A DNA stretch of 64,000 bases from an uncultured bacterium (GCA_963848965.1 CAWKFG010000004.1:416001-480000); one strand, 5' to 3'; numbered from the stretch's first letter, positions 19,084 through 39,878 are shown. Notes: generated by a model not told the origin, from the letters alone. Program-made: numbers and translations.

Positions 19084-19228
19084 GACGAGCTTTAATATCT
19101 TAGTTAGAAACCAAGTAAATAAGCTAAAGATTTTATACTATAAGCTTGTGATATAAGTTTGTTCAAATCTTAACTTTGATATAATTATATGACTAATAAA
19201 ACTATCTGATCAAGGTTCTAAAGAAGAC

Positions 19229-19259
19229 TGGTGTCTCCTGCTATACATGTTTCGGAACC
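19229..19259 (+). repeat. att-like site R1 (31-bp core)
   Basis: TGGTGTCTCCTGCTATACATGTTTCGGAACC, preceded by GTTCTAAAGAAGAC. Confidence 0.9.
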
Positions 19260-19376
19260 GTGAGCTACTCTTTGAGGTCTATCTCACTAATATTCAAATC
19301 CCTGTAAATAACTGTCAGAGATGTTAAAGAGTCCCTAAACTAAAAATAGTAAAAGTAAGTATTTCATATAATCTTC

Positions 19377-19970
19377 TTAAATTTCTGCATGCTCAACCGA
19401 TTCAAATATAAAAATCTGGCGATCTGCATGCCAGGTAAAGGTGGAAATTGATTCATTGGTTAATGCCGGCAATTCAGCTACATCATACCCTAAATGAGTA
19501 AGTAATGAACCAAGCACGTACCCATGAGTCACCACAGCAACGTGCTGCCCTTCATGTTTTTGCGCGATTTTATTCAGATAGCTCATAACCCGTGCCACCA
19601 CCTGATCGCGCGGTTCAGCTTCAATTATTGCTGGCAAAGAGTCATAATGAAAAGGACCATACAGCGCGCGAAACTCTTTCAAAGTAAGTCCTTGGACTTT
19701 TCCAAAATGTCCTTCACGCAGATCAACGGTAAGAGTAATTTCTAATGAAAACAGTTCAGAAATCTCTTGCGCAGTTTGATGTGCTCTTTGCAAATCAGAT
19801 GAATAAAGCGCGCCAAGCGAAACTTGTTTTTTCTTGAGAAATTGTGCTACTTTTTGCGCCTGCGCTTTTCCGGTTGCATTAAGTGGAATATCTTCATGCC
19901 CTTGCATTTTACCAGCAAGATTCCAATCAGTTTGGCCATGGCGAATAAGCAATAATGTTGTTGAACTCAT
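19377..19970 (-). CDS. Histidine phosphatase family protein
   Basis: LIRHGQTDWN, SSDLQRA, LRE, VTHG. Confidence 0.9.
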   Translation of the reverse strand: MSSTTLLLIRHGQTDWNLAGKMQGHEDIPLNATGKAQAQKVAQFLKKKQVSLGALYSSDLQRAHQTAQEISELFSLEITLTVDLREGHFGKVQGLTLKEFRALYGPFHYDSLPAIIEAEPRDQVVARVMSYLNKIAQKHEGQHVAVVTHGYVLGSLLTHLGYDVAELPALTNESISTFTWHADRQIFIFESVEHAEI

Positions 19971-19989
19971 GGAAAATCCTAAGCAAACG

Positions 19990-20418
19990 TTAAGCCAACA
20001 TATAGTCAACGGAAAATTCTGGAAATACTTCCTTTATCTTTGAAAGCATTGCTAGTGTAGGATTACATTTGCCAGCTTCTAGCCTTTGATAACTCCATAT
20101 TTTGTCAAATCCCATACGCTTTGCCAATTCTTGTTGAGTAAGGTTATGAGACATTCTGAAATATCGTATAAGAAATGAAAAGGCTATATTTGGATCTACC
20201 GGAACTTCTACAACACTTTTTGATGTCTTTATAGAAGCATCAGGAAATGGCGCTAAGTCTTTAGAATTCTCTGGTTCTTCTATATAAAGGTTTAAAGCTT
20301 CCTTCATATTAGCATAAAGCTCTTCCAAGCTATCTGCTTGCGTAACACAACCTTCTAATTCCAAGCAATGTGCCCAAAAGCCTTTTCCTTCTTTATGAAT
20401 TTTGAAATGATACTTCAT
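19990..20418 (-). CDS. hicB: HicB-family antitoxin with C-terminal HTH
   Basis: LEGCVTQADSLEEL...EAL; LTQQELAKRMG HTH. Confidence 0.85.
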   Translation of the reverse strand: MKYHFKIHKEGKGFWAHCLELEGCVTQADSLEELYANMKEALNLYIEEPENSKDLAPFPDASIKTSKSVVEVPVDPNIAFSFLIRYFRMSHNLTQQELAKRMGFDKIWSYQRLEAGKCNPTLAMLSKIKEVFPEFSVDYMLA

Positions 20419-20428
20419 GATTAGTTCC

Positions 20429-20613
20429 TTATTGAGCTGATTTTAATAATTTTCTAAGGTAATGTTCTGTTCCTTTTGCTAATTCTTTATGGTTCGGGAT
20501 AATGGCTTGTTTACAGCCCTTCTTTTTGAGCTTAATATGACTTCCTACTTGTCCCTCAATTCATAGCCAGCCTTTAAAAAAAGCTTAACCATATCCTTAC
20601 CACTAATTGGCAC
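20429..20613 (-). pseudogene. hicA: Frameshifted HicA toxin
   Basis: GGAGG RBS + GTG; MPISGKDMVKLFLKAGYE, then shift to GQVGSHIKLKK...IIPNHKELAKGTEHYLRK. Confidence 0.8.
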
Positions 20614-21018
20614 AAGTCCTCCTTTAATTAATAGTATAATTCTACCAAGTTTAATTGGCATTTGTCAAGGAGTTTAAATATGATATGACAAACTATCCTA
20701 AGACAATATTCGTCTATCTGCCTTCACTCGTCTATTTGTAGAAAAAGCAACTTCACAAATTTATGATGCAATAGAAAGCAATCCAAGGTAGCATATATAA
20801 CAAAACGCCAACATCTTATTGCTTGGATCATAGACACTACTAGGATGCTAACACGGATGCACTAGGACGCCACAGTACATCCTAGTGAATTACCAGGCAA
20901 CAAACTAAAGATAAAATTTTCTATAGCAGTTAGAGCTATGCTATAAGTTTGTTCAAATCACGATTTTGGTATAAATTTATAACAAATATATCGATATATT
21001 AACGATTCTTGAGAATAT

Positions 21019-21048
21019 TGGTGTCCCTTGCTTACATGTTTCGGAACC
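21019..21048 (+). repeat. att-like site R2
   Basis: TGGTGTCCCTTGCTTACATGTTTCGGAACC (1-nt deletion). Confidence 0.9.
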
Positions 21049-21391
21049 GGGAACTTGAATATGAGCCAAACATATACAGCAGCTTGGAATCATTCTACTC
21101 ATCGCTTAGCATTTAGACTAATAGTTGCTAACACTTAGAGGTTTATCTATCAACGCTTGCACTATATCAATAAGTTTTTTACTCTTGAGAAAGTTACTCA
21201 GCAGACTATACTAGGCTATATAAAACTTTTATGACCTAAACTATGGACTTATAATTTTATGGTAAAGATTAAAAAAGCAAAACCAAAATCCACGATCTCA
21301 CTTACGTTAGCTATGGGAATATAGCAAAGTCACCTTTCATAATGAAAAGCATATACTATCATAATTAATTTAACCCTATTGAGAAGCGATT

Positions 21392-21727
21392 ATGACTATT
21401 ACATACAAACAATTTGAGGATGTAGATATTAGAGTAGGTACTATCGTAAACGTTCAGGATTTTCCCGAAGCACGTAAGCCTGCCTATAAACTCTCTATCG
21501 ATTTTGGCAAATCCATTGGTATCAAAAGATCCTCTGCTCAAATAACACATCATTATACGAAAGAGCAACTGTTAGGGAAGCAAGTTTTAGCTGTCGTTAA
21601 TTTTCCTCCTCGCCAAATTGGTCCTTTTATGTCAGAAGTACTAACGCTGGGCTTACCTGACGAATCCGGTAATGTGGTACTTATTCAACCAACATTGACA
21701 ATTCCCAATGGAGGTAAACTTTTTTAA
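21392..21727 (+). CDS. csaA: CsaA-like tRNA-binding protein / export chaperone
   Basis: DIRVGTI...FPEARKPAYKL.IDFG...SSAQIT...VVNFPPRQIGPFMSEVLTLG. Confidence 0.9.
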   Translation: MTITYKQFEDVDIRVGTIVNVQDFPEARKPAYKLSIDFGKSIGIKRSSAQITHHYTKEQLLGKQVLAVVNFPPRQIGPFMSEVLTLGLPDESGNVVLIQPTLTIPNGGKLF

Positions 21728-21776
21728 AAGCTAGAGATTATTAAAGCCCCTTATTCCTTATATAAGAAAAAATTTA

Positions 21777-22283
21777 TTACTGCGATACCGTCGTATCGAT
21801 TGACGTATGCTCTAAATTGGCGCCTTGAAGATTCAGATTGATTAAAAAATTTACTATGCCTCGATTAAAATCTTGAACCATACTAACTCTTCCTCCAGGT
21901 AAAGAATCTCCCAATAATTGTATCACAAGTGCGCGAATCTTTGGAAAGTAATTAAATTTATTTGTTAACCTCACTGTATCATCTATACCTTTAATATATA
22001 AGCTGACTGCTTGTTCATTAGCTTCTGGAAGTATATCTGCTGGTTGCCATTCTGAGCTTAAGTTGAATCTTGTTGAGTGCCCAGATTTTAATAATTGCGG
22101 TCGCTTGAATTCAGTCGAGATTATATAATCGTTAGGTGTTTTATTAGAAACCTGTACAACAATATCAGGATATGCTCCTCTTAATGCAGCTATTACCTCT
22201 TTATCTGGTTCAGGCTCCATTCCTTTAATAGATAAAGGTAGAATATTTAGTAAACCAAAAATACATAAAAAAATTTTATTCAT
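21777..22283 (-). CDS. Hypothetical secreted protein
   Basis: AAGGA RBS, signal peptide followed by GMEPEP. Confidence 0.7.
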   Translation of the reverse strand: MNKIFLCIFGLLNILPLSIKGMEPEPDKEVIAALRGAYPDIVVQVSNKTPNDYIISTEFKRPQLLKSGHSTRFNLSSEWQPADILPEANEQAVSLYIKGIDDTVRLTNKFNYFPKIRALVIQLLGDSLPGGRVSMVQDFNRGIVNFLINLNLQGANLEHTSIDTTVSQ

Positions 22284-22452
22284 ATTGCATCCTTTTTATA
22301 AGCCCTATTAACAAATAAATATATATAATAAATTACAGATTAGTCAATATTAAACTAAATTTAATTATAAACCGTTGTCAGCAAAAGTTCTTGTTTAATT
22401 AACCCATATTTGATATAATGGGAAATATAATTATAAACGAAAGGATCTTATT

Positions 22453-22722
22453 ATGAAATCCATTTACGTAAAGGTTGATGAACGCAATCGTATAGCTTTA
22501 ACTAAGGCTACTAAAACTCCTTACAAAATTTACAAAATTCGCATGGAAGGCGAAACTATAATTCTCGAGCCAGTTATAGAGGCGCCAAAAGAGCAACATT
22601 GGTTATTTAAACCTGAGAATAAACATCTTTTGGCCCAACTTGAAGAGGGCTTAAAGCAAGAAGCTACCATATCTCGTGGTTCGTTTGCACAATATGCGAC
22701 TGACAATGAAGAAGATGAATGA
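22453..22722 (+). CDS. Putative AbrB-like antitoxin
   Basis: VDERNRI.L...G.TIILEP motif, acidic tail, overlaps downstream toxin-like gene. Confidence 0.65.
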   Translation: MKSIYVKVDERNRIALTKATKTPYKIYKIRMEGETIILEPVIEAPKEQHWLFKPENKHLLAQLEEGLKQEATISRGSFAQYATDNEEDE

Positions 22723-23008
22723 AATACGCTTTTCTCCTCGAGCTGATAAAAACATGCAAGATTTGGAAGATGATCCATCCAAGGAAAGAATACTCAAAGA
22801 TGTTAAAAAAGCTCTAGGATTTATGGAAACTAACTTAAGGCATCCTTCATTGCAAACTCATGAATTTGATGAAATGACAGGTCCTAATGGAGAAAAAGTC
22901 TTTGAAGCTTATGCTCAAAATAAGACACCGGGAGCATATAGGATATTCTGGTATTATGGACCGGGAAAAAACGTTATATCAATCATTGCAATTTTACCAC
23001 ATCCTTAA
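22715..23008 (+). CDS. Putative RelE/ParE-superfamily toxin
   Basis: NLRHPSLQTHE...VFEAYAQNKTPGAYRIFWYYGP...ILPHP. Confidence 0.7.
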   Translation: MNEIRFSPRADKNMQDLEDDPSKERILKDVKKALGFMETNLRHPSLQTHEFDEMTGPNGEKVFEAYAQNKTPGAYRIFWYYGPGKNVISIIAILPHP

Positions 23009-23134
23009 TAGGAATTAACAGTCATCAAGCCAAGAGATCAGAAAAGACCATTTATATACTAAAAGTGTCTTAATTAGAGCTTTTGATACATTTTACACCG
23101 AGTATATCGATCTAGAAATGGTTCTAAAGCAAGC

Positions 23135-23165
23135 TGGTGTCCCCTGCTGTACATGTTTCGGAACC
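23135..23165 (+). repeat. att-like site R3
   Basis: TGGTGTCCCCTGCTGTACATGTTTCGGAACC. Confidence 0.92.
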
Positions 23166-23222
23166 GTAAACTTGAATGTGAGATTTGTTTAGATGACATT
23201 AAAGTAATTTTTGTACAACCTA

Positions 23223-24377
23223 TTAAACCTTAATCTCTTTTAATATATTAAGTCCCCAGGCTGTACTCTTTTCACTTAATGGGAAATGAATATTGCCTGG
23301 GAAAATTACATACAAATGATCCAGTCTCAAATCTTCAAGTGCTATATGCATAGATTTTGTCATTTTAGGTGTATCACTGTACTTAAATTCAAAGCCTAAA
23401 CGCTTTCCACTTTTAAAGACAAATAGATCCAGCTCTGCTTTATTAGAAGTTGACCAAAAATAACAATCATCTGCTCTTATTTGCAAACAATTAATAACTT
23501 GCTCTAAAGCAAAACCTTCCCATAATGCCCCAATTTTAGGGTTTTTTGCTAACTCTGTAAGAGTATGAATAGAGGATAAGGTATTAAAAATACCACTATC
23601 TCTAAAATAGATTTTAGGCGTTTTTACTTGTCGCTTTTTTATATTTTCAAACCAAGGCTGCAAAACACGTATCATAAAAGTGCCTGCCAATATATCTAAG
23701 TATTTTTTTATTGTTTTATCTGACAACATTAAAGAATGTGCAATCTCATGAGCATTAAAGTACTGCCCATGATAAAAACAAAGCATCATCCAAAAGCGAT
23801 GCATTATTTTTGAGGGAACATCAAAACCAAAGTTTGGTAGGTCTTTCTCTAGAAAAGTGTTGATATATCCTTCTCGCCATAAAAAACTATCTTCCTCTGA
23901 TTGAGCTAAATAAGATCTCGGAAATCCGCCACGGATGAGTAACTTATCTGAATGATCAACTTCAAAAATGGTAAATGGAGGCAGCTCTATGTAGCCAATT
24001 CTTCCAGCTAATGTTTCTGATGATTGATGTATTAATTCTCTTGATGCGCTTCCCAAAATCAAAAATGAGTATTTTTTTTCTGGATCATCAACAAGTACTC
24101 GTAAAACTGGAAAAAGGTCTGGTCTACGTTGAATTTCATCTATAACAACAAGAAAGTTTTCATACTTGCTTAATGTAAGCATTGGATTTTCTAAGCTTGC
24201 TAAATGGATAGGATTTTCTAAGTCAAAAAACTCAACCTTACCAGTATATTGCTCAGAAAATTGACGCGCTAGTGTTGTTTTTCCTACTTGACGTGCTCCC
24301 AGAATTGCACATATTGGTTGTACCCTTAAATGTCTTTTAACTTGCTCTAAATATATTTTTCTTAGCATATTTTCCAT
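23223..24377 (-). CDS. AAA_14 + DUF4143 ATPase
   Basis: GARQVGKTT, IDEIQ, LGSAS, ETLAGR, KIYFRDSG, ELDL...FEFK. Confidence 0.9.
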   Translation of the reverse strand: MENMLRKIYLEQVKRHLRVQPICAILGARQVGKTTLARQFSEQYTGKVEFFDLENPIHLASLENPMLTLSKYENFLVVIDEIQRRPDLFPVLRVLVDDPEKKYSFLILGSASRELIHQSSETLAGRIGYIELPPFTIFEVDHSDKLLIRGGFPRSYLAQSEEDSFLWREGYINTFLEKDLPNFGFDVPSKIMHRFWMMLCFYHGQYFNAHEIAHSLMLSDKTIKKYLDILAGTFMIRVLQPWFENIKKRQVKTPKIYFRDSGIFNTLSSIHTLTELAKNPKIGALWEGFALEQVINCLQIRADDCYFWSTSNKAELDLFVFKSGKRLGFEFKYSDTPKMTKSMHIALEDLRLDHLYVIFPGNIHFPLSEKSTAWGLNILKEIKV

Positions 24378-24465
24378 GCAAATTCGGAACTATAGTCCAA
24401 TATTACATGGAACTATAGCAAAAGTCAAATGACTAGAATAATCTACCAGACATTCCAAGAAAGGC

Positions 24466-24496
24466 TGCTATCCTCTGCTTGGCATATTTCGGAACC
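24466..24496 (+). repeat. att-like site R4 (degenerate)
   Basis: TGCTATCCTCTGCTTGGCATATTTCGGAACC followed by GAGAGCTTTTGTTTGAGATTGATTTTAAAGA. Confidence 0.8.
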
Positions 24497-24557
24497 GAGA
24501 GCTTTTGTTTGAGATTGATTTTAAAGAGATACAAGCACTTCTTGCTTTACCTTTTCA

Positions 24558-25289
24558 TTAAAATACCATTGTACTTCTTTTATCTTTATTAAGCTTGCTA
24601 AGATATGGCCTTAAGAATCTAATAAATTTTTTTTCATTTGCTATACCTTCTTGAGTATATAAATTAAAGTGTGCCAATGAACGTTCATCTGAATCAATAA
24701 CCAAAAGAGTAACCGGCCTTTGAGGTAGATTTACTAAAGAAAATAGTACCCAGTGGTCACCTACGGTTACAACAAAGTATATTGCTTGTGGCTCTCTCTT
24801 AACCATGGCCATCAGGCGATTAAGTTCTTTATGTAATAAGTCATCCAAGTCTAAAGAAGTCTCTTTAGAATCAAGCAATGTGATTTCGTCCTTCTTTGCT
24901 GTCAAACATATGAGCTTATTTCCAATACCATTTTTATCTGCAAGTCTTTGTATGTGATAGTCCCAAAGGCCCTTATCCTTTCCATACTGAGTATATAGTT
25001 TCTTAAGTGCTTTCTGGTTTCGTAAACCAATTTTTAACACTTCTTTAAAATTACGTGGAGTTTTAAGAGCCTTTTCTATTGCAAGTGCATGAAAAACAGC
25101 CCGCAATCCACAAGACCATTCATCAGCCTGAGCTAGATAATTGCGTATTTGAATTACATTATGCCTAGTAAATTGTTTAGTAACAGTTATTACAAGCGGC
25201 TTACTGAGGGAAATAATATAACTTAACGGCTTGGCCGCTATTTCTGCTATAACTATTAAAAGAGATAAAATAACTATTACACTATTCAT
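24558..25289 (-). CDS. Secreted protein with a possible cysteine-protease triad
   Basis: Signal peptide; QADEWSCG...DHWVL...VIDS. Confidence 0.55.
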   Translation of the reverse strand: MNSVIVILSLLIVIAEIAAKPLSYIISLSKPLVITVTKQFTRHNVIQIRNYLAQADEWSCGLRAVFHALAIEKALKTPRNFKEVLKIGLRNQKALKKLYTQYGKDKGLWDYHIQRLADKNGIGNKLICLTAKKDEITLLDSKETSLDLDDLLHKELNRLMAMVKREPQAIYFVVTVGDHWVLFSLVNLPQRPVTLLVIDSDERSLAHFNLYTQEGIANEKKFIRFLRPYLSKLNKDKRSTMVF

Positions 25290-26016
25290 AATTATACCTT
25301 TGCCTTTAATAAATCACGCTTGCTTTGGCTCTTTGGTACTTTAAGAAAGCCTATAAACTGACAAAAAAATGGGTTTATTTACAAGATTTTAAGCTCTATT
25401 TCAAAAAAGGTTGGAATCTTTTGCGCTTGCTCAACTGCTAGAGCATGCAAGATGACATAGAGGTCACAAAACTAATTATCGTCTTGTGCTAACCTATAGC
25501 ATATGCGTTCAACATATTTTCTTCGTAATTTATTAAATAGGATAATAACAAAAGTATTAGCAAACTCAAACGCTTGGCTTATTCTTAAATTTTAATTAAA
25601 ATAATCGATAAATTTAGCAAAAGCACTATTGAAAACATAGAGGGATAAACTTGCTTCTTAATTGGAGCTAACGGTTCTATTAACAACAATAATTTGGATG
25701 ATATAGAAGAGCATGCTTAAATTTTACGATTAACCCCGAAAAGAATAGTGGCTCCATAGGTTGGGTATTCTTTATCCCCATAAAAGTAAAACGATAAAAT
25801 CTTTCAATGGTGATGCTTGATGGACGAAAAACACCAATAGAAGACTCTAAATTAAGGAAGTCAAATAGCCATCCTTGAGATGGCAACGCCCATCAACCAC
25901 TGCATCTTGCAGCGCACGTTGATTTAGATTTTTATTTGCAAATAAAATTGACATCTATTTTAATATTAGTTACTATAAGTAAGGAATTTAATGTTTTTAT
26001 AATGTAAGGTCTAACT

Positions 26017-27438
26017 ATGAAGATGTATGCGAAATTTCTCGTAACTGTATGCAGCCTAATGGCTTTCAGTATAATTGCTATGGAGAAAACTGCCGATCAA
26101 AAGAGCAATTACCGCGGACTAGCCATATCAATGACTGATGAGGTGCTACTAAGTAAGAGTAAAAGCACCGATCGTGAATTTATCAACCTTATCCAAAATG
26201 CATATCCTGAGATGAATTACTTGACCTCACCAGCGCATGCAAGCCCTGAAGGTCAGGCTAGTGCTCATGAATCTTCTCCTTCAAAGCTTCTATTTGGGAA
26301 GCAACATATAGAGTATGATCGTACTATTGTTGGTATTCTTGCTTTAAAATGGGTACTTGTAGACGATTATGATCACTTTGTTGAAGGGCAGCCGGAACAT
26401 ATTAAATTAAAAAGAGAAAGCTTTAACGAGCTGCGCACCTTAACGCTCAAGGTCATTAAAAATGGTATGCTCAACGCTTTAGTAACCTCGCTGGTCATCA
26501 ACGATTTAGGTAAAATAATCTCTTTTGTTAAAGAGGTTGAAGGACGAACGGGAATGAGTGAAGTTGACCATGATAACATTTTATTTACGGCCTTATTAAA
26601 GTATCCAGAACTTATTCCTAGCTTTACTCATTTAACAAGTGACCAACAAAAAACGATTCTTAAAAGTCTTGGCGCCCAGTTTAATTTAGGTCAGTTTGTT
26701 CGAGCAGAGAATCTTCCTGCAAGTTTAAAGGGCTTACAAGGGCTTAGCCAAGAAGAGCTCGATTTTAACAATATCCATGTATTATACGACCTTGCTGGCG
26801 CACGAGGTCACATTTCAAGTCAAGGTTCATTATTATTAACTGAACCTGTTTATCAATCCTTTATTACTGCTTTTAAGGTGTTTAATGAGATTGCACCTAT
26901 AACATGTAACCAAGATTTAACGCATATATACAATGCTTATCTAGCTTTACGAGCACGATCTTTAAATAGTAAGGATTCACTTGCGATACCAGAAAGCCGA
27001 GCTTTAGTCCGTATTGCATGTATGGTAGGCTCTAGTAATGATGCTGAGTTTACTAAAGTAAAAGATGCTTTTAATAAGTTATCCTATAAAGAACAAAAGA
27101 TACTTATTGATGAGCTTAATAAGACAGGTATTAATGATGTAGGTATTTTGCTCTATTATGCGCCAGCTATTCTTACTAATGCACGATCTACATCTCCCCA
27201 AGATTCGGAGTATAGCCTCCAAGTTGGGCTAAGATACTTAGCCAAAGTCTTTAAATTAGCACGAGCTTCCATTGCCGATGGACAGCAAGGCAGAGTGTAT
27301 ACGGTAGATTGTGCAGCTTTGGCCCAGGCAATAAAGGTCCCTCAAGAACTTGGATACTGTACCCTTGAGCTTAAGCCTGTAAATAATGATGCTCAAGTGG
27401 TAGTGCATGCTAAGCTATTAGGCGCTCCCTATAATTAA
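26017..27438 (+). CDS. Hypothetical secreted protein with HD-like motifs
   Basis: Signal peptide + AMEK; INDLGK...DHD...YDLAGARGH. Confidence 0.65.
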   Translation: MKMYAKFLVTVCSLMAFSIIAMEKTADQKSNYRGLAISMTDEVLLSKSKSTDREFINLIQNAYPEMNYLTSPAHASPEGQASAHESSPSKLLFGKQHIEYDRTIVGILALKWVLVDDYDHFVEGQPEHIKLKRESFNELRTLTLKVIKNGMLNALVTSLVINDLGKIISFVKEVEGRTGMSEVDHDNILFTALLKYPELIPSFTHLTSDQQKTILKSLGAQFNLGQFVRAENLPASLKGLQGLSQEELDFNNIHVLYDLAGARGHISSQGSLLLTEPVYQSFITAFKVFNEIAPITCNQDLTHIYNAYLALRARSLNSKDSLAIPESRALVRIACMVGSSNDAEFTKVKDAFNKLSYKEQKILIDELNKTGINDVGILLYYAPAILTNARSTSPQDSEYSLQVGLRYLAKVFKLARASIADGQQGRVYTVDCAALAQAIKVPQELGYCTLELKPVNNDAQVVVHAKLLGAPYN

Positions 27439-27494
27439 GCCTTATCCTTTGGTCTTATTTCTATCTAAAGCTTGAGCCCTTAGCAAAAGCCCTA

Positions 27495-27522
27495 TCAGAA
27501 CCGAGAACTTGAATTTGAGGTT
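27495..27522 (+). repeat. att-like site R5 (right arm only)
   Basis: TCAGAACCGAGAACTTGAATTTGAGGTT, near-identical to the R7 right arm. Confidence 0.75.
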
Positions 27523-30776: not shown

Positions 30777-31259
30777 TATCACACAAAGCTTAAATGCTAT
30801 ATAGTTGTAGAATTAAAGGCACGAGAATTTGACCCTCGCGATATTGGCCAACTTAACTTCTATATATCAGCAGTTGATGATTTAGTACGTGATTCAGAGG
30901 ATAAACCAACCATAGGTTTGCTTCTGTGTAAGACAAAAAGAAACTTTACTGCTGAATATGCTCTACGAAATATAAGCTCGCCTATCGGGATTGCTCAATA
31001 TACTACTCTAACAGAAAAACTACCAAAAGAACTTAAAGGAAGTCTTCCAACAATTGAAGAAATTGAGGCCGAGCTTGAAAGGCAGGAAATTTTACTAGAA
31101 AAAGAATAGAGTGAACTTTAATACTTTAGTTAGAAGTCAAGTAAATACGCTGAAGATAAGATCCTCTAAGGTAAGTTTTTAATATAAGCCCGTTCCAATC
31201 TTAATTTTGATATAGCACCATGTCAAATACATTCATCTAATCAAAATTCTAAAGAAGAC

Positions 31260-31290
31260 TGGTGTCCCCTGCTATACATGTTTCGGAACC
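31260..31290 (+). repeat. att-like site R6 (consensus)
   Basis: TGGTGTCCCCTGCTATACATGTTTCGGAACC. Confidence 0.92.
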
Positions 31291-31546
31291 CTAAGCTCTT
31301 GTTTGAGGTTGACCTTAAAGAAATTCCGGTGATTTTAAACCTGCTAGAAAAGTAATTTTGATATAATAAGAACTTAGTCTTTTAAGCAAACAGTCCCTAA
31401 AAAGTATGCTACAAACTACAAAATCGTACACAAAAGCTATTTATCGCTTATCGTATAGAACCTTGAACAAATTAATTAAACACAGTATTATAAGTGATAC
31501 GATAATCTGGGAATTGGATTCCCAGATTGCAAGCAAGGAGTTTTAT

Positions 31547-32734
31547 ATGATTAATAGAGAACTAAACCACTCTTTGGTTAAAGCAGCAAATGAATTTCCT
31601 GTAGTTGCTGTATTGGGCCCACGGCAATCTGGCAAAACAACTTTGGTTCAAACAACTTTCACCGATCATAGGTATGTCTCCTTAGAAGATTTTGACTTGC
31701 GGAACCTAGCAAATCGAGATCCTCGAAGATTTTTACAAGATTACCCTAGTCAAAGCGGCATTATTCTAGATGAAGTACAACATGCTCCCCAGCTTCTTTC
31801 TTATATTCAAACCACAGTCGACCGTGAAAAAAGAAAAGGATATTTTATTCTCACTGGCTCTCAGAATTTGCTAATGAATGAGGCGATAACACAAAGCCTT
31901 GCTGGTAGAATTGCACTTTTAGACCTTTTTCCGCTATCCATAAGTGAACTTGAGCATGCTTCATTACTACCCCAAAAAATAGAAGAGGTTGTTTTTAAAG
32001 GAAGCTATCCCAAAGTTTATGCAGAGGATCTTTCTCCTGAAAAAATATATGCTAATTATATCCGAACCTACATAGAAAGAGACGTTCGTCAAATTAAAAA
32101 TATTACAGATCTTACTCTCTTTCAACGCTTTGTTCAATCATGCGCAGGAAGGACTGGGCAGACACTTAATCTTTCATCATTAGGTAATGATGTGGGAATA
32201 GATCATAAAACAGCACGTGCTTGGCTTTCTGTACTTGAGGCTACCTATATTGTTTTTTTGCTCTACCCTTACTATAAGAATTATGGAAAACGCCTTATTA
32301 AAGCACCTAAACTTTATTTTGTAGATACAGGGATCGCCTGCTCACTTTTAAATATCAGGTCTCCAGAGGTTATAATTGAACACTACATGAGAGGTCATCT
32401 CATTGAGTCTTTTATCATTTCAGATTTATTTAAGCAATACTATAACCTCGATCAAAGGCCATCCTTATATTTTTGGAAAAACCATCAAGGTAATGAAATC
32501 GATTGTATTATAGAGGAAGCCTTATACACAATCCTCATTGAAATTAAAGCAGGTAAAACTATCGCTAGTGATTTTTTCACAGGATTTGGTTATTGGAAAA
32601 ATATAACGAAATCTCCTTCACGTAATTTTGTTATCTATGGCGGTTCAGAAAACCAAAACTGGCCCGAAGCAAAAGTAATAAGCTGGCAATCGTCCGGCAG
32701 CCTGATCAAGAACATTAATAAGGGGCAATTTTGA
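31547..32734 (+). CDS. AAA_14 + DUF4143 ATPase
   Basis: GPRQSGKTT, LDEVQ, LTGSQ, QSLAGR, KLYFVDTG, EID...IEIK; AAGGAG RBS. Confidence 0.9.
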   Translation: MINRELNHSLVKAANEFPVVAVLGPRQSGKTTLVQTTFTDHRYVSLEDFDLRNLANRDPRRFLQDYPSQSGIILDEVQHAPQLLSYIQTTVDREKRKGYFILTGSQNLLMNEAITQSLAGRIALLDLFPLSISELEHASLLPQKIEEVVFKGSYPKVYAEDLSPEKIYANYIRTYIERDVRQIKNITDLTLFQRFVQSCAGRTGQTLNLSSLGNDVGIDHKTARAWLSVLEATYIVFLLYPYYKNYGKRLIKAPKLYFVDTGIACSLLNIRSPEVIIEHYMRGHLIESFIISDLFKQYYNLDQRPSLYFWKNHQGNEIDCIIEEALYTILIEIKAGKTIASDFFTGFGYWKNITKSPSRNFVIYGGSENQNWPEAKVISWQSSGSLIKNINKGQF

Positions 32735-32825
32735 AAACAAAAAGCCTTCAATAATTCATTGAAAAGCGATTAAGTAAAGTCTAAGCTGCTGAGATTTAAG
32801 AACTGTCTGGCGTTCTAAAGAAATT

Positions 32826-32856
32826 TACTGTCCCCTGCTATGCATATTTCGGAACC
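32826..32856 (+). repeat. att-like site R7
   Basis: TACTGTCCCCTGCTATGCATATTTCGGAACC. Confidence 0.88.
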
Positions 32857-32966
32857 GAGAACTTGAATTTGAGGTTGATCTTAAAGATATCAAACACTAT
32901 TTTACACTATAAAGCTCAGCAACTGCTTGCTATGTTTCTAGACAGTTAATCTTGCACTTTTGGTTA

Positions 32967-33791
32967 CTACTTCCCACCAGATATCTCTTTCCTAGATTTC
33001 CAAGGTTTTCCTGGTAGTAGGCTTACCAATTGCTCACTAACCATTTGGAATGCCTCATTTGAAGACCATATTGATTGATCAGCAATCAAATGTACTATAT
33101 CATTTTGAAAATCAGGATTTTGTTGTTTTTCAAATAAGTTCTTTTCAAACTCCGCGCGAGTAATTGATAGCCCTTCATTACCGCAATACTTTTTAAAGAT
33201 ACTTATTACAGCTTCACAATCAATTAACTCTTTTTTCAAGACAAACCATATATCATAAAGATCTCTTCCTTTACTTCTTTGATATAATGCTCTTAACTTT
33301 GTTCCAATAAGTTCATTAAGCTGGTAAGTTTTAATAGCTGACTTACCAGAAAACCATGTGCTCGCTATAGCAAACTCATAATCTATTAAATCATAAACAC
33401 TAAAATGTTCTGTTGTGTTTATTTCGATTTTTAGTTTGCGCTGTATATTATCGATAGAGCTATATTGATAGGTTAACTTAGCACTTCTGTTAGTAAGTTT
33501 GCCCTTAGGCTGCCCCAACCAAGACAAAGCGGTACGGATCTCGAGAATAAGCGGCCCTATAGGTTGAGAGGTAATTTGAACAAGATCAATATCCTCACTA
33601 TAACGCAATGGAGGCTTAAAAAATAACTTATTAAGAGCTGTTCCTCCTCTAAAAACTAAATTTTCCCTAATTTTTTCACGCTCATATAAGTTTATTAACG
33701 CTCGACTGATAATTAAATCCTGCTCTACTTGATAATCAGCTATCCATGGTACATGCTGTCGCCATTCTGATAAGTAAAAAGTTTCAATCAT
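32967..33791 (-). CDS. abiEii: AbiEii-family nucleotidyltransferase toxin (type IV TA)
   Basis: EQDLII, FRGGTALNK, RYSEDIDL, KLRAL..R.KGRDLYD. Confidence 0.9.
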   Translation of the reverse strand: MIETFYLSEWRQHVPWIADYQVEQDLIISRALINLYEREKIRENLVFRGGTALNKLFFKPPLRYSEDIDLVQITSQPIGPLILEIRTALSWLGQPKGKLTNRSAKLTYQYSSIDNIQRKLKIEINTTEHFSVYDLIDYEFAIASTWFSGKSAIKTYQLNELIGTKLRALYQRSKGRDLYDIWFVLKKELIDCEAVISIFKKYCGNEGLSITRAEFEKNLFEKQQNPDFQNDIVHLIADQSIWSSNEAFQMVSEQLVSLLPGKPWKSRKEISGGK

Positions 33792-34582
33792 ATATCACCT
33801 TCTAGCTTGGTGTTTTCAATGATTTTCCAAGTTTCATTTCTTTTTGCTTTACTGAGTTTTGCCTTAAGGCCAGTATGAAGCATCACATAATTAACTCTTG
33901 GTTGTTTTGACAAGTGCTCTTTTATTACGCTTGCCAGGTTTTTTGCTCCAATAAATTCCAAAATATAACCTAGGCGTTGTTTCCAAGGAGTTCCAGGTAG
34001 GTTCTCTATAACTGATTTTAGCCCTTCCTCGGTCATGCTTTCTTTAAGCTCAGCAAGAATTGTGGTTATATTGTTTAAGCCACCACTTTGTTTTACAAAT
34101 TTAATAAGATCTACTGCTGTAGCTTCTGGACTTGAAACCCTAAGTTTACTCTTCAGCGTAGAGAACCAAGTAACAGGAACCTTTTCAATCTCTTGGTTCT
34201 TGATAAAGTTAATTTTAACCTTACCGCAAACTACAGAGCGCAATTTCTTTTCAGTAACTACTTGAAAAACCTGAGGAGCTTGATGTGATGCTCCGTAATA
34301 GCTAGCGGCTGTAATTAAACCTGCATAGTACTTATACCCTAAGTATTCCATTAAATAGGGAATAAACTGATCAGCGGGAATACACTCAAGAATCTTATAT
34401 TCCGGTGGTATTATCACGTAAAACCCTTTTACTGGACTAACGATTTCTCCTTTACCAATAAGGCGAGAAATGGCATGAAGTATAGCATTCCTAGATTTAT
34501 TGAGCTCTTTATAAGCACTATTTATAGTAAAGTAGCATCTACCATAGGCAACTTGCTTGTTTAAATATTCCTTAATCTTCAT
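33788..34582 (-). CDS. abiEi: AbiEi-family antitoxin
   Basis: GFYVIIPPEY, YYAGLITAA.YYGASHQAPQ, SSPEATAVD; 4-nt overlap with abiEii. Confidence 0.88.
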   Translation of the reverse strand: MKIKEYLNKQVAYGRCYFTINSAYKELNKSRNAILHAISRLIGKGEIVSPVKGFYVIIPPEYKILECIPADQFIPYLMEYLGYKYYAGLITAASYYGASHQAPQVFQVVTEKKLRSVVCGKVKINFIKNQEIEKVPVTWFSTLKSKLRVSSPEATAVDLIKFVKQSGGLNNITTILAELKESMTEEGLKSVIENLPGTPWKQRLGYILEFIGAKNLASVIKEHLSKQPRVNYVMLHTGLKAKLSKAKRNETWKIIENTKLEGDI

Positions 34583-34603
34583 AATTAACAAATTCATTTT
34601 AAT

Positions 34604-34626
34604 AAAATGCCTAAAATCGGCATTTT
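34604..34626. promoter_or_regulatory. Inverted repeat upstream of abiEi, candidate autorepression operator
   Basis: AAAATGCC-N7-GGCATTTT. Confidence 0.5.
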
Positions 34627-35002
34627 GTGCAAACAAAAACGAAGCTAATACTATAATACTTTATGGGCTAAATTTGTCAAAAAATACTCAAAAGTACGCG
34701 TTCCTTAACCCTCTTAGGAGAAAATAAGTAGCTTTTGCTGAATGATTTAAGAACCGAAAATTTTATCTTTGCAACGTCGAAGAAATAATAATTTTAACAA
34801 GCCAGATCTTACATTACCTAGATGTTCATGAAAAAAGCAATTTTACAAAATATCAGCACTTTAGCAATAAAGCTTCATATTTAATAAATATGCATTAAAG
34901 CGCTTCACGAAGACCTTATACTATAATTATATAGTGAATTACATTGAACTGATCTAGTTTCTAAAGAAGGTTGGTGTCCCCTGCTTGTATATTGAAATTA
35001 TG

Positions 35003-35162
35003 TTCCTAAATTTGAGACGTTAAGTTTAGGAAAGCTAGCAGGAGCCTGTTCCCCTGCCTGGTTTTTAAAACCGAGTGTCAACTTAGGACCTGCTAGCATA
35101 TATAGTACAGCTCGAACAATCGAGTGGGACAAGGATCCCGTATACAAAACCGAGGCACTATA
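35003..35162 (+). ncRNA. Bridge RNA of the IS110 element
   Basis: 5' stem-loop; target loop with CCCCTGC; donor loop with ACAATCG and TATACAA. Confidence 0.85.
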
Positions 35163-36106
35163 TGAATACTATATCACATATTTTTGTCGGCATCGATATC
35201 TCTAAAAAATTTTTAGATATTCACTTACATCCTGTGGCTAAAGACTTTAGAGTTGCTAACTCACAAGCTGGAATCAATAAACTCATTCAAGTACTTTCTG
35301 CTTATACTGTCGTACAGATCGTTTTTGAGTCTTCTGGTGGTTACGATTTCCTTCTCAAGCAAGAACTTAGCATTAATAATTATAATGCTTGGCAAGTTCA
35401 GCCTAGACGCATTAGAGCCTTCATCATCTCTGAAGGCATTAAGGCTAAAACTGATAAAATTGATGCTCAAATGATTGCTCTCTTTGCTTCTCAAAAACGG
35501 CCTAAATATCATGAGATTATTCGTTCTCAAGACGAGCTAAAGCTCTGTGCTCTCGTCAAATTCAGGACTAACATTGTCCGAAACATTGTTCAAGAAACCA
35601 ATAAATTGCAGCATCCTCAACAAGTTTACTGTAAAAATTTTCTTGAAGCTCATATCTCCTTTATGGAAAGACAGTTACAGGAAGTTGAACAAGAAATTGA
35701 ACAGCTGATCCAAGACAATGAATCTCTTAATAAAAAATGCCATATTATTGAGTCTATGCCTGGTATCGGCAAAGTCACTGCCTGCTCTTTGCTTGCAGAA
35801 ATGCCTGAGCTTGGCAAAGTCGGTAATAAGCAAATAGCCGCTATTCTAGGTGTAGCACCTTTTATTAAGCAAAGTGGTGGATCTAAAGGCACTGCATCAA
35901 TTAGCGGTGGTAGACAAGCTACCCGTGATATCCTTTATATGGCTACATTAGCAGTTATCAGATTTAATCCTGCACTTAAATGCTTTTATAAACGGCTACG
36001 CACTGTTGGTAAAAAAGCTAAAGTTGCTCTCATTGCTGTTATGCGAAAGGTTATTGGTATTTTAAATGTTATGGTTCGAAAAGGAGAACAATGGCAAACT
36101 ACTTAA
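35162..36106 (+). CDS. IS110-family DEDD recombinase
   Basis: GIDISK, FESSGGY, KTDKIDA, PGIG, QSG. Confidence 0.95.
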   Translation: MNTISHIFVGIDISKKFLDIHLHPVAKDFRVANSQAGINKLIQVLSAYTVVQIVFESSGGYDFLLKQELSINNYNAWQVQPRRIRAFIISEGIKAKTDKIDAQMIALFASQKRPKYHEIIRSQDELKLCALVKFRTNIVRNIVQETNKLQHPQQVYCKNFLEAHISFMERQLQEVEQEIEQLIQDNESLNKKCHIIESMPGIGKVTACSLLAEMPELGKVGNKQIAAILGVAPFIKQSGGSKGTASISGGRQATRDILYMATLAVIRFNPALKCFYKRLRTVGKKAKVALIAVMRKVIGILNVMVRKGEQWQTT

Positions 36107-36318
36107 AATAATTTTTAAACTTGTTGACTTTTAACACAATCGTTTACATGTTTCGGAACCGGAAGCTCATTTTTGAATTTGATCTTAAAGATATTCAATC
36201 AATCATTGCTTCATACAATTTTAGCTTATATTGAAAACTTATATAATAAGCTTTCGATGGTTTACTTCTTCTAGGTATCAGCATTAGAAGGATAAAAAAG
36301 GTAAAACTTCTAGGGATT

Positions 36319-37305
36319 TTACTCTTTTGCGCCATATTTTTTAAGTAACTCTACTATATCTGAATGACCTTTTTCTGTAGCAAGCATTAAAGCAGTTTCG
36401 CCAAACCTATTTCGTACATTAACTTCAGCACCTTTAGCTAAGAGCATTTGAACTATATCTTTATGGCCACCTCGTGTAGCATGCATTAAAACAGTACTTG
36501 TATACAGATCTTTAGCATTAACATCAGCACCAGCCTTAATCAGAAGTTCTACTACCTCTTTATGACCATTTCTTGCAGCGTCCATTAAAGCGGTAAATCC
36601 CACAATATTATCTCGAGCGTTAATATCAGCACCAGCTTGTATAAGCATTTCTACTATTTCTTTATAGCCTTTCACTGCGGGCCTCTTTAAAGCACTATAA
36701 TTATCTTTAGTTTTAACGCCAATGTTAGCATCAGCCCCTTTCTCTAGAAGCAACGCTACAATTTCTCTATAGCCGTTTTGTGCAGCATAATACAAGGCAG
36801 TGCAGCCAAACATTTCCTCTTGAGTATCAATATCACTAATACCTTTACTTAAAATATCTCTTACTTTTTCAATATTTCCCTTTCCAGACGCTTCAATAAG
36901 CCTTAAAGCATTAGGATGTAGCTCTAGCAATTTTTGTGCACTTTGAACTCCACGATTTTCAAGGTCTTTTAGTATCCAATTGGGTTTATATTGTCGAGCA
37001 TACGCTTTTCGTTTTAACTCATTGAGAAGGAATCTCACAAGATCTACATTATCAAATAAGGCTTTATAGTTTTCATTCCTTGCCAATTCTTCTATTTTCT
37101 TAAGAGCTTCAGAAAATGTTTTTGATGACTCTAGAGTTTCTTTGATACTACACTCTAAAGCCTCTCTGATTTTATTATATACTACAAAATGGTTCAGCTC
37201 TTTCCTCAGCTCTTGCGGCAAGTATTCTAGATAACTCTTTTGCTTTTGCATCCCAAGACCAGACGTAAAAAATCCTAACAATAAGATAACTATTACCTTT
37301 TTCAT
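36319..37305 (-). CDS. Ankyrin repeat protein with signal peptide
   Basis: About six ankyrin repeats; GMQK after signal; YLPQEL motif. Confidence 0.92.
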   Translation of the reverse strand: MKKVIVILLLGFFTSGLGMQKQKSYLEYLPQELRKELNHFVVYNKIREALECSIKETLESSKTFSEALKKIEELARNENYKALFDNVDLVRFLLNELKRKAYARQYKPNWILKDLENRGVQSAQKLLELHPNALRLIEASGKGNIEKVRDILSKGISDIDTQEEMFGCTALYYAAQNGYREIVALLLEKGADANIGVKTKDNYSALKRPAVKGYKEIVEMLIQAGADINARDNIVGFTALMDAARNGHKEVVELLIKAGADVNAKDLYTSTVLMHATRGGHKDIVQMLLAKGAEVNVRNRFGETALMLATEKGHSDIVELLKKYGAKE

Positions 37306-37550
37306 GCTTAATTTTCTTTCCAATATTTTTACTGTTATGATTTTATTATAGTTCATAAAGGCACAAGATTCAACTAGCAATTAACTTCTAATGTTAAAAA
37401 GAATAAAACCTTATGCGTTCTAGTTGATTTTAAGAAACAAGCTAGATAAAGGATCTTTCATTAAGCATACGATACAAAATACTCAAATTAGTGATCTTTG
37501 ATGTAAGCCTATGCTAGAAATGTTTTTCTATTCAAGGTTCTAAAGAATAT

Positions 37551-37581
37551 TGGTGTCCCCTGCTATACATGTTTCTGAACC
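37551..37581 (+). repeat. att-like site R9
   Basis: TGGTGTCCCCTGCTATACATGTTTCTGAACC. Confidence 0.92.
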
Positions 37582-37663
37582 AAAAGCTTGAATTTGAGAC
37601 CTGTTTAGATGATATCAAACAGTTTTATCTAGCCTTCAACATTTAGTAAAGTAATTTTTAATA

Positions 37664-39816: not shown

Positions 39817-39878
39817 TTAGGGACTTTTATACATTCCAATAACTAATATAATTATACAATCGCGATTCTAAACGAAGC

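What the first reader, a model, noticed from the sequence alone, without database searches (positions are those of the whole stretch)
19160..37620. The att-like sites carry a protein-coding imprint (probable recombinase C-terminus)
Seen: on the + strand the sites read about SKExWCPLLYMFRNR[EK]LxFExDL. Variation is mostly synonymous: Leu CTA/CTG/CTT, Arg CGT/CGG/CGA, Glu GAA/GAG, Leu CTA/CTT/CTC. No intact ORF leads in. Upstream fragments recur: CSNLNFD (19160, in frame with the site), CSNHDFG (~20950), RSNLNFD (~31190), HEK...SNKASYL (~34830-34885). At the tRNA the same frame reads WCAR*. Inference, from recollection of tRNA-targeting large serine recombinases whose 3' end spans attP: each unit came from a diverged integrase-bearing element, and integration would swap the enzyme's tail, a possible directionality switch.
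Basis: partly seen in the sequence, partly recalled or inferred. Interest (0 to 1): 0.72.

Follow-up and report, generated by a model that had tools for sequence, protein, structure and literature searches.

The report
Recombinase tail encoded in tRNA-linked sites
The repeated sites beside a tRNA-Arg gene each encode the spare C-terminal tail of a large serine recombinase whose gene runs across its own recombination site, and here they separate small recombinase-less gene cassettes in a way that recalls an integron.

Summary
Eight sites plus one degenerate site lie left of tRNA-Arg(tct). In one + frame they read ..SKEDW CPLLYMFRNRELEFEVDL.. and stay open 28-32 codons after the W.

The W codon TGG is the reverse complement of the tRNA's CCA end.

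The genome's only serine recombinase is a 486-aa large serine recombinase (LSR) on another contig. It ends ..QAWRAR* inside tRNA-Arg(tcg). Of its 120 best homologues, 118 carry the same ..PFD..W anchor. After the W, 78 stop within 3 residues, 28 read antisense through a tRNA, and 12 continue otherwise. One of these, P0059, continues into a tail that a profile of the window sites hits in register.

Across 37-41 tails from this genome and relatives, codon periodicity and open frames support coding. Tails lie upstream of LSR genes on the same strand (27 upstream, 0 downstream, 0 opposite).

What is not supported is that each unit was once integrase-bearing. No LSR remnant precedes any window site, and the units are 1.3-3.8 kb cassettes, many of them toxin-antitoxin or defence genes.

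The closest known system is the Dehalococcoides ssrA islands. A directionality role for the tail is untested.

The parts
19191..19327 (+). Site s1. Left arm with the mini-palindrome TTCT-AA-AGAA, core TGGTGT (W codon at 19229), then the P'-type arm and 32-codon tail WCLLLYMFRNRELLFEVYLTNIQIPVNNCQRC*.
20981..21110 (+). Site s2 (W at 21019). It is one base shorter between GCT and TACATG, so the tail frame is broken. From TAC onward it reads YMFRNRELEYE..
23097..23233 (+). Site s3 (W at 23135), 32-codon tail WCPLLYMFRNRKLECEICLDDIKVIFVQPIKP*.
24428..24561 (+). Site s4 (TGC at 24466 in place of TGG), 31-codon tail CYPLLGIFRNRELLFEIDFKEIQALLALPFH*.
27487..27560 (+). Degenerate site s5. Only the distal tail part survives (..YQNRELEFEVTLHNDLEAF..) and the core is lost.
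31222..31355 (+). Site s6 (W at 31260), 31-codon tail WCPLLYMFRNPKLLFEVDLKEIPVILNLLEK*.
32788..32912 (+). Site s7 (TAC at 32826 in place of TGG), 28-codon tail YCPLLCIFRNRELEFEVDLKDIKHYFTL*.
34934..34985 (+). Left half of site s8 (W at 34972; ..TGGTGTCCCCTGCT), cut by the IS.
34986..36144 (+). IS110-family element (transposase 35162-36106) inserted inside site s8. This is one of 3 copies in the genome, all inserted at the same position of such sites.
36145..36234 (+). Right half of site s8: YMFRNRKLIFEFDLKDIQSIIASYNFSLY*.
37513..37646 (+). Site s9 (W at 37551), 31-codon tail WCPLLYMFLNQKLEFETCLDDIKQFYLAFNI*.
39864..39955 (-). tRNA-Arg(tct) at 39879-39955, with its trailer GATTCTAAACGAAGC on the + strand. 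This is the attB-like end of the array. The site frame reads SKRSWCAR* here.
19328..24427 (.). Cassettes c1-c3, none with a recombinase. c1: His_Phos plus a HicB-like/HTH protein. c2: tRNA_bind protein, one 168-aa ORF and two small ORFs, all three without a Pfam family. c3: AAA_14-DUF4143 ATPase.
24562..34933 (.). Cassettes c4-c7. c4: unknown 243-aa protein plus DUF6829. c5: YhcG/DUF1016 nuclease gene split by a group II intron. c6: AAA_14-DUF4143. c7: AbiEi/AbiEii.
36235..39863 (.). Cassettes c8-c9. c8: ankyrin-repeat protein. c9: Fic/DOC plus HTH protein and DUF2608.

Best explanation
The sites are attachment-site junctions of a family of large serine recombinases (LSRs) that integrate at the CCA end of tRNA genes. 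The LSR reading frame, antisense to the tRNA, runs across the crossover point.

The invariant W codon TGG is the complement of CCA. To its right, each site carries the element-side arm (P'), which continues the LSR frame for about 30 codons (consensus W[CR]PL[LV].xFRNxx[LI]EFxxxLxxIQ..).

When an element sits next to the tRNA, its LSR gene loses this tail. It then ends 2-3 codons into the tRNA or reads through it. The displaced tail stays at the far junction.

The window holds an array of such junctions with no LSR. Each junction is the right end of one small cassette, then the core TGGTGT, then the tail-encoding arm of the next cassette.

Inferred, not shown: cassettes entered one after another at the tRNA-proximal site, pushing older ones leftward. 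They were moved in trans by an LSR such as the one at tRNA-Arg(tcg), whose target half-site is 29 of 34 bases identical to this tRNA's. I put this in-trans step at about 0.5. The overall confidence of 0.8 is for what the sites are. The tail is a real, selected part of the enzyme whose function is unknown.
For: - **One LSR in the genome.** There is one Resolvase match. It is a 486-aa protein with Resolvase, Recombinase and Zn_ribbon_recom all above cut-off. Its last codons ..CNDRQAWRAR* overlap tRNA-Arg(tcg).
- **Relatives.** 11 of 11 full-length homologues in relatives end ..W + 2-3 aa or read through a tRNA-like 3' flank.
- **Top homologues.** Of 120, 118 have the ..PFD..W anchor. After the W, 78 have 3 aa or fewer, 28 read through a tRNA T-arm and 12 continue otherwise. 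Eight of those 12 have [FL]R[NTSI] at +7 to +9, as the window does.
- **Direct homology.** A profile built only from the 6 intact window tails hits P0059 residues 483-508 of 516, W on W, E=3.5e-4 among 120 sequences. BLASTP of that tail against window tails gives E 4e-6 to 3e-4.
- **Species-representative loci.** In 80 loci, 67 have the anchor and 49 of these place the W on the CCA end of a called tRNA (Glu 14, Asn 12, Asp 10, Arg 8, Gln 5). FRN-type tails number 27 upstream on the same strand in 23 loci, 0 downstream and 0 on the opposite strand.
- **Coding signal.** Of 41 distinct tails, the median open run after W is 33 codons against 12 and 7 in the other frames. No stop occurs in 27 codons in 36 of 41, against 9, 0, 4, 1 and 10 in the other five frames. 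Diversity at codon positions 1/2/3 is 0.495/0.325/0.577 for 37 tails, p=0.00025. For codons 11-27 alone p=0.0016. Shifted registers give p=0.17 and about 1.0.
- **Tail swap seen directly.** See G001 and L056.
- **Co-occurrence.** Tails are found in 19 of 60 relatives, and 16 of these also have the LSR, which 26 of 60 carry.
Against: - There is no LSR in the window, and the only one in this 88.7%-complete assembly is on another contig. Its action on these sites is inferred.
- Window-only coding statistics are weak (p=0.0375; pN/pS 0.64, with one antisense frame at 0.60).
- The first 10 codons overlap what must be the protein-binding arm of the site, so DNA-level and protein-level constraint cannot be separated there.
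- Canonical LSRs recombine only attP with attB, and a tRNA site that already carries an element is formally attR. How arrays grow is therefore unexplained unless the left half-sites of both partners are equivalent. That is suggested but not shown.
- Codon periodicity across lineages could be inherited from times when the tails were attached to LSRs, rather than reflect selection in the array.
- AlphaFold gives the tail pLDDT below 50.
Confidence: 0.8

Rival explanations
1. First reader's version. Every unit is the remnant of a separate, diverged LSR-bearing element that integrated in tandem. The LSR genes were later deleted, leaving only their last few codons and the neighbour's tail.
For: LSR pseudogenes and C-terminal fragments next to tails or tRNAs do occur in relatives. 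Examples are G006:C4:262255-262662, G019:C1 with 2 stops, G018 and G003. Typical LSR elements are 4-11 kb with a tail at the far end. The ~15 bases left of each W resemble the last codons of some LSRs (..DSKxW against ..GSKEDW; by eye).
Against: No LSR-body homology lies upstream of any of the 9 window sites. Nine independent deletions, each ending within ~90 nt of the W, are improbable. Units are 1.3-3.8 kb with 1-3 genes. In G039, 6 sites plus a weaker seventh copy are 700-850 bp apart (1.2 kb to the weaker copy), with only toxin-antitoxin pairs or a Fic protein between them. In L056 an LSR-less 2.7-kb unit sits between an intact LSR and its tRNA.
Confidence: 0.15
2. The conservation is purely at the DNA level, as a recombinase-binding arm or other cis element. 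The open frame is a by-product and the tail is never a functional part of a protein.
For: The first ~30 nt after the W must bind the recombinase. This stretch holds a T-loop-like TTCGGAACC about 5-6 bp further out than TTCGAACC lies in the tRNA (by eye). For Dehalococcoides DsiB the authors judged the overlapping 3' part unlikely to be functional and found it divergent (PMC3146451, passages read). The AlphaFold model of the tail is unconfident.
Against: Three-base periodicity and stop avoidance extend through codons 11-27, beyond any usual 40-50 bp LSR site. Tail length is held at 26-40 codons in 38 of 41. The peptide pattern FRN..IEF.F.L..IQT.FS is kept across genera while third positions vary.
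Confidence: 0.04
3. The sites are ordinary displaced tRNA 3' fragments left by tyrosine-integrase islands accreting at tRNA-Arg.
For: The array sits at a tRNA 3' end, and the sites begin with the complement of ..ACACCA.
Against: Identity to the tRNA ends after TGGTGT, about 6 nt of the gene, and the rest does not match tRNA or any Rfam family. The genome has only two tyrosine recombinase matches (308- and 312-aa frames), both on contig C1 and neither near this array or the other tail sites. All other evidence ties the sites to the LSR.
Confidence: 0.01

Closest known systems
Dehalococcoides ssrA-specific genomic islands with the DsiB serine integrase (McMurdie et al. 2011, PMC3146451; passages read)
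   Same: [quoted passage not shown] Tandem islands lie downstream of a tRNA-like gene. 15 islands lack an integration module and were discussed as cis-mobilisable. Sequence is conserved beyond the short direct repeat.
   Different: The target there is tmRNA (mid T-loop), not the CCA end of ordinary tRNAs. There is one target gene there, against at least five tRNA types here. Those authors found the overlapping part divergent and probably non-functional. Here the displaced tail is a conserved ~30-aa peptide with a coding signature. Units here are far smaller (0.7-3.8 kb) and mostly toxin-antitoxin or defence genes. No DsiA-like small partner was seen next to the LSR in L001, though I did not search for one. 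Homology between this LSR and DsiB was not tested.
Canonical phage large serine integrases (phiC31, Bxb1, TP901-1, A118/LI)
   Same: The domain set is Resolvase + Recombinase + zinc ribbon with a long helical insertion. Sites are short with little attP/attB identity. The only solved relative by sequence is the TP901-1 integrase catalytic domain, E=1.8e-6.
   Different: In those phages attP lies outside the integrase ORF (recalled, not from a call), and tRNA genes are not their targets. [quoted passage not shown] The strict attP x attB rule would not by itself allow arrays to grow.
SSV-type 'suicidal' tyrosine integrases of archaea (PMC7253208; only the abstract in the search listing was seen)
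   Same: The recombination site lies inside the integrase ORF, so integration splits the gene.
   Different: That is an unrelated tyrosine enzyme. There the gene is cut into two large parts and inactivated. Here only about 30 C-terminal residues are exchanged, and the truncated ORF keeps all recognised domains.
Integron cassette arrays, including chromosomal arrays rich in toxin-antitoxin cassettes (recalled knowledge)
   Same: These are arrays of small, unrelated, recombinase-less units, each bounded by one copy of a conserved site next to a fixed entry site. Toxin-antitoxin cassettes are common. An IS110-family element targets the sites, as the IS1111-attC group does in integrons (that comparison is recalled).
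   Different: No IntI tyrosine recombinase, no attC hairpin and no common promoter are present. Genes lie in both orientations. The entry site is a tRNA 3' end and the enzyme is a serine recombinase.
Integration-dependent immunity of mycobacteriophages, where attP lies inside the repressor gene and integration removes a C-terminal tag (recalled; mentioned in the abstract of PMC4929511 in the listing)
   Same: Integration changes the C-terminus of an element-encoded protein because attP lies in the 3' end of its gene.
   Different: There the gene is the repressor and the removed tail is a degradation tag. Here it is the recombinase itself and the tail's role is unknown.

Membership tests
Large serine recombinase (the protein whose tail the sites encode) | N-terminal resolvase catalytic domain with the serine nucleophile | tested here: met
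   PF00239 E=8.5e-21 on the genome's LSR. R8, V9 and S10 are invariant in 41 aligned homologues.
Large serine recombinase (the protein whose tail the sites encode) | Recombinase domain and zinc-ribbon domain with a coiled-coil insertion | tested here: met
   PF07508 E=5.3e-14 and PF13408 E=6.2e-08, both above cut-off. The AlphaFold model has long helices at 335-414 after the ribbon.
Large serine recombinase (the protein whose tail the sites encode) | The window peptide is contiguous with, and homologous to, the C-terminus of such a protein | tested here: met
   The profile of window tails hits P0059 residues 483-508 of 516, E=3.5e-4. The LSR 3' end is contiguous with a tail in G001 C23 and in L056.
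Large serine recombinase (the protein whose tail the sites encode) | Catalyses attP x attB recombination at these sites | not testable with these tools
   No experiment was possible and no sequencing run was listed.
LSR attachment site (attP / attL type) | Lies at the element end opposite the tRNA, same strand as the LSR | tested here: met
   27 tails upstream on the same strand, 0 downstream and 0 on the opposite strand in 67 anchored loci. All window sites are on the + strand, left of the tRNA.
LSR attachment site (attP / attL type) | Shares only a short core with attB, and the crossover lies inside that core | tested here: met
   Window sites and tRNA share ..TGGTGT and then diverge. The two G001 paths are identical through TGGCGTCCC and then diverge.
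LSR attachment site (attP / attL type) | Imperfect dyad symmetry of ~40-50 bp about a central dinucleotide | tested here: inconclusive
   GGTTC..(46 bp)..GAACC and small palindromes on both sides were seen by eye. The exact centre could not be fixed.
Integron | IntI-type tyrosine recombinase adjacent to the array | tested here: not met
   No Phage_integrase match lies in the window. The genome's two matches are on contig C1. Pfam scan of the array ORFs found none.
Integron | attC sites (imperfect inverted repeats folding as hairpins) bounding single promoterless ORFs in one orientation | tested here: not met
   The sites are direct repeats with a coding imprint and match no Rfam family. Cassette genes lie on both strands, 1-3 per unit.
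Dehalococcoides-type ssrA genomic islands | Serine integrase gene overlapping the att site at its 3' end, in tandem islands, some without an integrase | tested here: met
   overlap; arrays without an LSR.
Dehalococcoides-type ssrA genomic islands | Target is the tmRNA gene; integrase is a DsiB/CcrB homologue with a DsiA partner | tested here: not met
   Targets are the tRNA genes Glu, Asn, Asp, Arg and Gln. Relatedness to DsiB/CcrB and the presence of a small partner were not tested.

The most novel reading that the evidence does not exclude
A serine-recombinase counterpart of the integron. A resident LSR sits with its 3' end on a tRNA's CCA end and captures small LSR-less cassettes (toxin-antitoxin, defence and effector genes) at that site.

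Each cassette brings an arm that both serves as the recombination half-site and encodes a replacement C-terminal tail for the LSR. Every insertion or excision then toggles the enzyme between a tRNA-truncated and a tailed form, which would give a built-in, RDF-independent control of direction or dosage.

L056 shows the required configuration: LSR, then cassette tail, then cassette, then tRNA. G039 shows an array of toxin-antitoxin pairs spaced 0.7-0.85 kb apart (1.2 kb to a weaker seventh copy).
Probability: 0.25. Interest if true: 0.85.

Novelty: new variant of a known kind. Interest (0 to 1): 0.68.

Why it matters
The finding has four consequences.

- **A new tRNA-targeting recombinase family.** It identifies a large family of serine integrases: 2152 database proteins at E<=1e-30. 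They occur in MAGs labelled Dependentiae/Babeliales and in several labelled Patescibacteria. They use the CCA end of at least five tRNA types as their target. A 2014 reference work said serine integrases were not known to do this (PMC4383910).
- **A conserved overlap.** The part of the integrase gene that crosses the site is a conserved peptide, not junk. This reopens a question left aside for the Dehalococcoides islands: does integration regulate the enzyme by changing its C-terminus?
- **A way to build defence islands.** The recombinase-less cassette arrays suggest how reduced endosymbiont genomes assemble toxin-antitoxin and defence islands without integrons.
- **Practical interest.** An LSR that recognises a T-arm/CCA motif shared by many tRNAs would be a useful integration tool.

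Tried and rejected
- **Structure.** AlphaFold2 of the tailed LSR P0059 with 40 homologues gave a body of mean pLDDT 76.9 but a tail (residues 481-516) below 50. No structural hint about the tail came from it.
- **Sequencing runs.** None was listed for window 30000-39900, so circular or empty-site reads could not be sought.
- **Metagenome scans.** Two exact-pattern scans with the window's site core found 0 stretches.
- **LSR remnants.** A profile of the LSR's last 70 residues against the six-frame window found none at the sites.
- **Rfam.** At E<=1 over 18000-40500 only the true tRNA and group II intron domains matched. Nothing matched at the sites, so a tRNA-like or known-RNA reading was dropped.
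- **Window-only pN/pS.** This cannot separate the proposed frame (0.64) from one antisense frame (0.60).
- **Half-site geometry.** I tried to fix the crossover and half-site type (P or B) from palindrome positions by eye. The centres came out differently for the Arg and Asp sites, so I make no claim beyond 'inside the shared core'.
- **Literature.** Searches for 'serine recombinase' + 'Dependentiae' gave 0 papers. 'Serine recombinase' + 'integron-like' + 'cassette' + 'tRNA' gave 1 paper, on tyrosine recombinases. Searches gave only the analogues cited. One search was rejected for a malformed term. Supplements were not consulted.

Full report
**What is in the window**

Left of tRNA-Arg(tct) (39879-39955, minus strand) lies an array of direct repeats, all on the + strand. 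Their W-equivalent codons are at 19229, 21019, 23135, 24466, 31260, 32826, 34972 and 37551. A degenerate copy lies at 27487-27560.

The site at 34972 is split after ..CCCCTGCT by a 1.16-kb IS110-family element and resumes at 36145.

The core decamer occurs 10 times against 2.35 expected. A longer pattern occurs 8 times in the whole 1.73-Mb assembly, only here and only forward.

The sites share ..TTCTAAAGAAGAC TGGTGT with the tRNA's trailer and CCA end (GATTCTAAACGAAGC TGGTGT..). After that they diverge from the tRNA but stay similar to each other for about 80 more bases.

In the frame of TGG the six intact sites read W/C/Y-C-P-L-L-x-[MI]-F-R-N-R-[EK]-L-x-F-E-x-x-L.. and remain open for 28-32 codons. 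No ORF leads in, and the tRNA reads ..SKRSWCAR*. Site s2 is one base short and out of frame.

Within the window alone the coding signal is only suggestive. Diversity at codon positions is 0.319/0.272/0.422, p=0.0375. pN/pS is 0.64 against 1.08 in the other two + frames, but one antisense frame gives 0.60.

**What the peptide is**

The assembly has one serine recombinase, on contig C1. It is 486 aa with Resolvase + Recombinase + Zn_ribbon_recom. Its last codons..TGT AAC GAT CGT CAA GCA TGG CGC GCC CGG TAG, overlap tRNA-Arg(tcg) on the opposite strand. The W codon is the complement of the tRNA's CCA.

All 11 full-length homologues found in 60 relatives end the same way.

Of the 120 best database homologues (names given by sources: Candidatus Dependentiae, Babeliales, TM6):
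- 118 carry ..PF[DN]..W.
- 78 stop within 3 residues after the W.
- 28 read antisense through a tRNA T-arm (..DSNLRPTD..).
- 12 continue otherwise.

Eight of those 12 have [FL]R[NTSI] seven to nine residues after W, exactly as the window sites do. P0059 continues ..W SPLVDAFRNGKVEFTISLSHIQSTF... A profile built only from the window tails finds that stretch (483-508 of 516), W on W, at E=3.5e-4 among the 120 proteins.

**Generality and position**

The tail profile matches 20 of 61 genomes. Of the 19 relatives with tails, 16 also have the LSR, which 26 of 60 carry. Kin are not independent.

In 80 LSR loci from species-representative genomes, 67 show the anchor. In 49 of these the W lies on the CCA end of a called tRNA (Glu 14, Asn 12, Asp 10, Arg 8, Gln 5). 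FRN-type tails lie upstream on the same strand (27 tails in 23 loci), with none downstream and none on the other strand. This is the layout expected if the tail is the displaced far junction of the integrated element.

In this genome further tails lie in the expected position and orientation:
- Beside tRNA-Asp(gtc): 1 tail.
- Beside tRNA-Glu(ttc): 2 tails.
- Beyond the LSR at tRNA-Arg(tcg): 3 to 4 tails.

**Coding imprint across the family**

For 41 distinct tails, the median open run after W is 33 codons against 12 and 7 in the other + frames. No stop occurs in 27 codons in 36 of 41, against 9, 0, 4, 1 and 10 of 41 in the other five frames.

For 37 tails in confirmed register, diversity at codon positions is 0.495/0.325/0.577 (p=0.00025). 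For codons 11-27, which lie outside any usual 40-50 bp LSR site, it is 0.558/0.379/0.620 (p=0.0016). Shifted registers give p=0.17 and about 1.0.

One caveat applies. This pattern could have been laid down while the tails were attached to active LSRs.

**The swap seen directly**

In G001 a 5.4-kb contig ends with 77 bases identical to the LSR 3' end on another contig. One continuation is tRNA-Glu (..QVWRP*). The other is ..QVWRPLVGTFLNYQLEFSLSLQSLQTFFSFFKLSI*. The two are identical through TGGCGTCCC.

In L056 (a complete chromosome) an intact LSR reads ..LLW RLTLGTLRTFRWNTFKRTPFMKGI*. Two unrelated genes follow, and tRNA-Asp lies 2.7 kb further on, preceded by ..GCCTTGGCGAAGTA TGG. An LSR-less unit has therefore entered between the LSR and its tRNA and supplied a tail.

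The nine window units are 1.3-3.8 kb and carry 1-3 genes each:
- His_Phos plus a HicB-like protein.
- tRNA_bind plus small ORFs.
- Two AAA_14-DUF4143 ATPases.
- DUF6829.
- A YhcG nuclease gene split by a group II intron.
- AbiEi/AbiEii.
- An ankyrin-repeat protein.
- Fic plus an HTH protein, and DUF2608.

No LSR-body homology precedes any site. Only 1 of 41 tails is preceded by LSR coding sequence.

G039 has 6 sites plus a weaker seventh copy, 700-850 bp apart (1.2 kb to the weaker copy). Each pair of sites encloses a different toxin-antitoxin pair or a Fic protein, with the LSR 14 kb away at tRNA-Asp. These look like non-autonomous cassettes, not decayed integrase elements.

**How arrays might grow (inference)**

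About 10 of the 33 tRNAs of this genome, by eye, are followed by a trailer of the form small palindrome + GAAGAC before TGG. Two of these lie in tRNA-tRNA spacers too short to hold an element. The same motif precedes tails.

A strict pattern finds it in 19 of 61 genomes, including some without an LSR match, with at most 1 control match. The left half of the site therefore seems to be the same kind of sequence in the chromosomal and the element partner. If so, insertion regenerates a usable tRNA-side site, and new cassettes can enter there.

This is not shown, and it departs from the canonical attP x attB rule.

**Literature**

The nearest described system is the Dehalococcoides ssrA islands. 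[quoted passage not shown] They form tandem islands, 15 of them without an integration module. The authors judged the overlapping part unlikely to be functional (PMC3146451, passages).

[quoted passage not shown] I found nothing on such elements in Dependentiae. Later work outside the held library may exist.

**Verdict**

The core interpretation (recombinase C-terminus spanning the site, tail swapped on integration) is supported. The origin of each unit from an integrase-bearing element is not supported. The functional meaning of the tail is open.

Noticed in passing
window 34986-36144; G000:C1:386018-387196 and C1:396668-397838: The IS110-family element has exactly 3 copies in the genome (99.7-100% identical). 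All three are inserted at the same position of tail-type att sites, after CCCCT[GA]CT and before [TG]AC... The element therefore appears to target these sites specifically.
   Followed up: partly
window 27931-31109: A YhcG/DUF1016 PDDEXK nuclease gene is split by a group II intron. The RT-maturase ORF is at 28984-30657, and Rfam finds intron domain V/VI at 30698-30776. A second partial copy of the gene's 3' part (18787-19086, 91% identical to 30813-31112) lies left of the first site.
   Followed up: partly
G000 tRNA genes, e.g. C1:294374-294394, C1:458677-458697, C4:219902-219924, C4:524062-524082: Many tRNA genes are followed directly by a conserved trailer: a 3-5 bp palindrome with a variable loop, then GCGAAGAC, abutting CCA. 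Stems vary in a compensatory way between copies. The motif occurs in 19 of 61 related genomes, including ones with no LSR match. It could be a native processing or terminator hairpin that the elements mimic.
   Followed up: partly
L034:3128-8290 (G039:C8): An array of 6 tail sites plus a weaker seventh copy, 700-850 bp apart (1.2 kb to the weaker copy). Each unit holds a different toxin-antitoxin pair or Fic protein. The left flanks of these sites are not conserved beyond about 3 bases.
   Followed up: partly
loci L087, L090, L091, L102, L106, L108, L109, L115, L118: Close homologues of this LSR (47-67% identity) occur in MAGs whose record titles name Patescibacteria lineages (Levybacteria, Woesebacteria, Roizmanbacteria, Pacebacteria, Daviesbacteria), mostly at tRNA-Asn. 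The family therefore spans Dependentiae and CPR-labelled genomes.
   Followed up: no
L001:9656-10846 (-); L035:2842-3978; L036:4315-5724: A 380-470 aa ORF with no Pfam match recurs near the LSR in three elements. It has a similar C-terminal motif by eye (..FKVIR...KFK..) and may be a replication or accessory protein of the LSR elements.
   Followed up: no
These are not LSR-like by profile search, and their role is unknown.
   Followed up: partly
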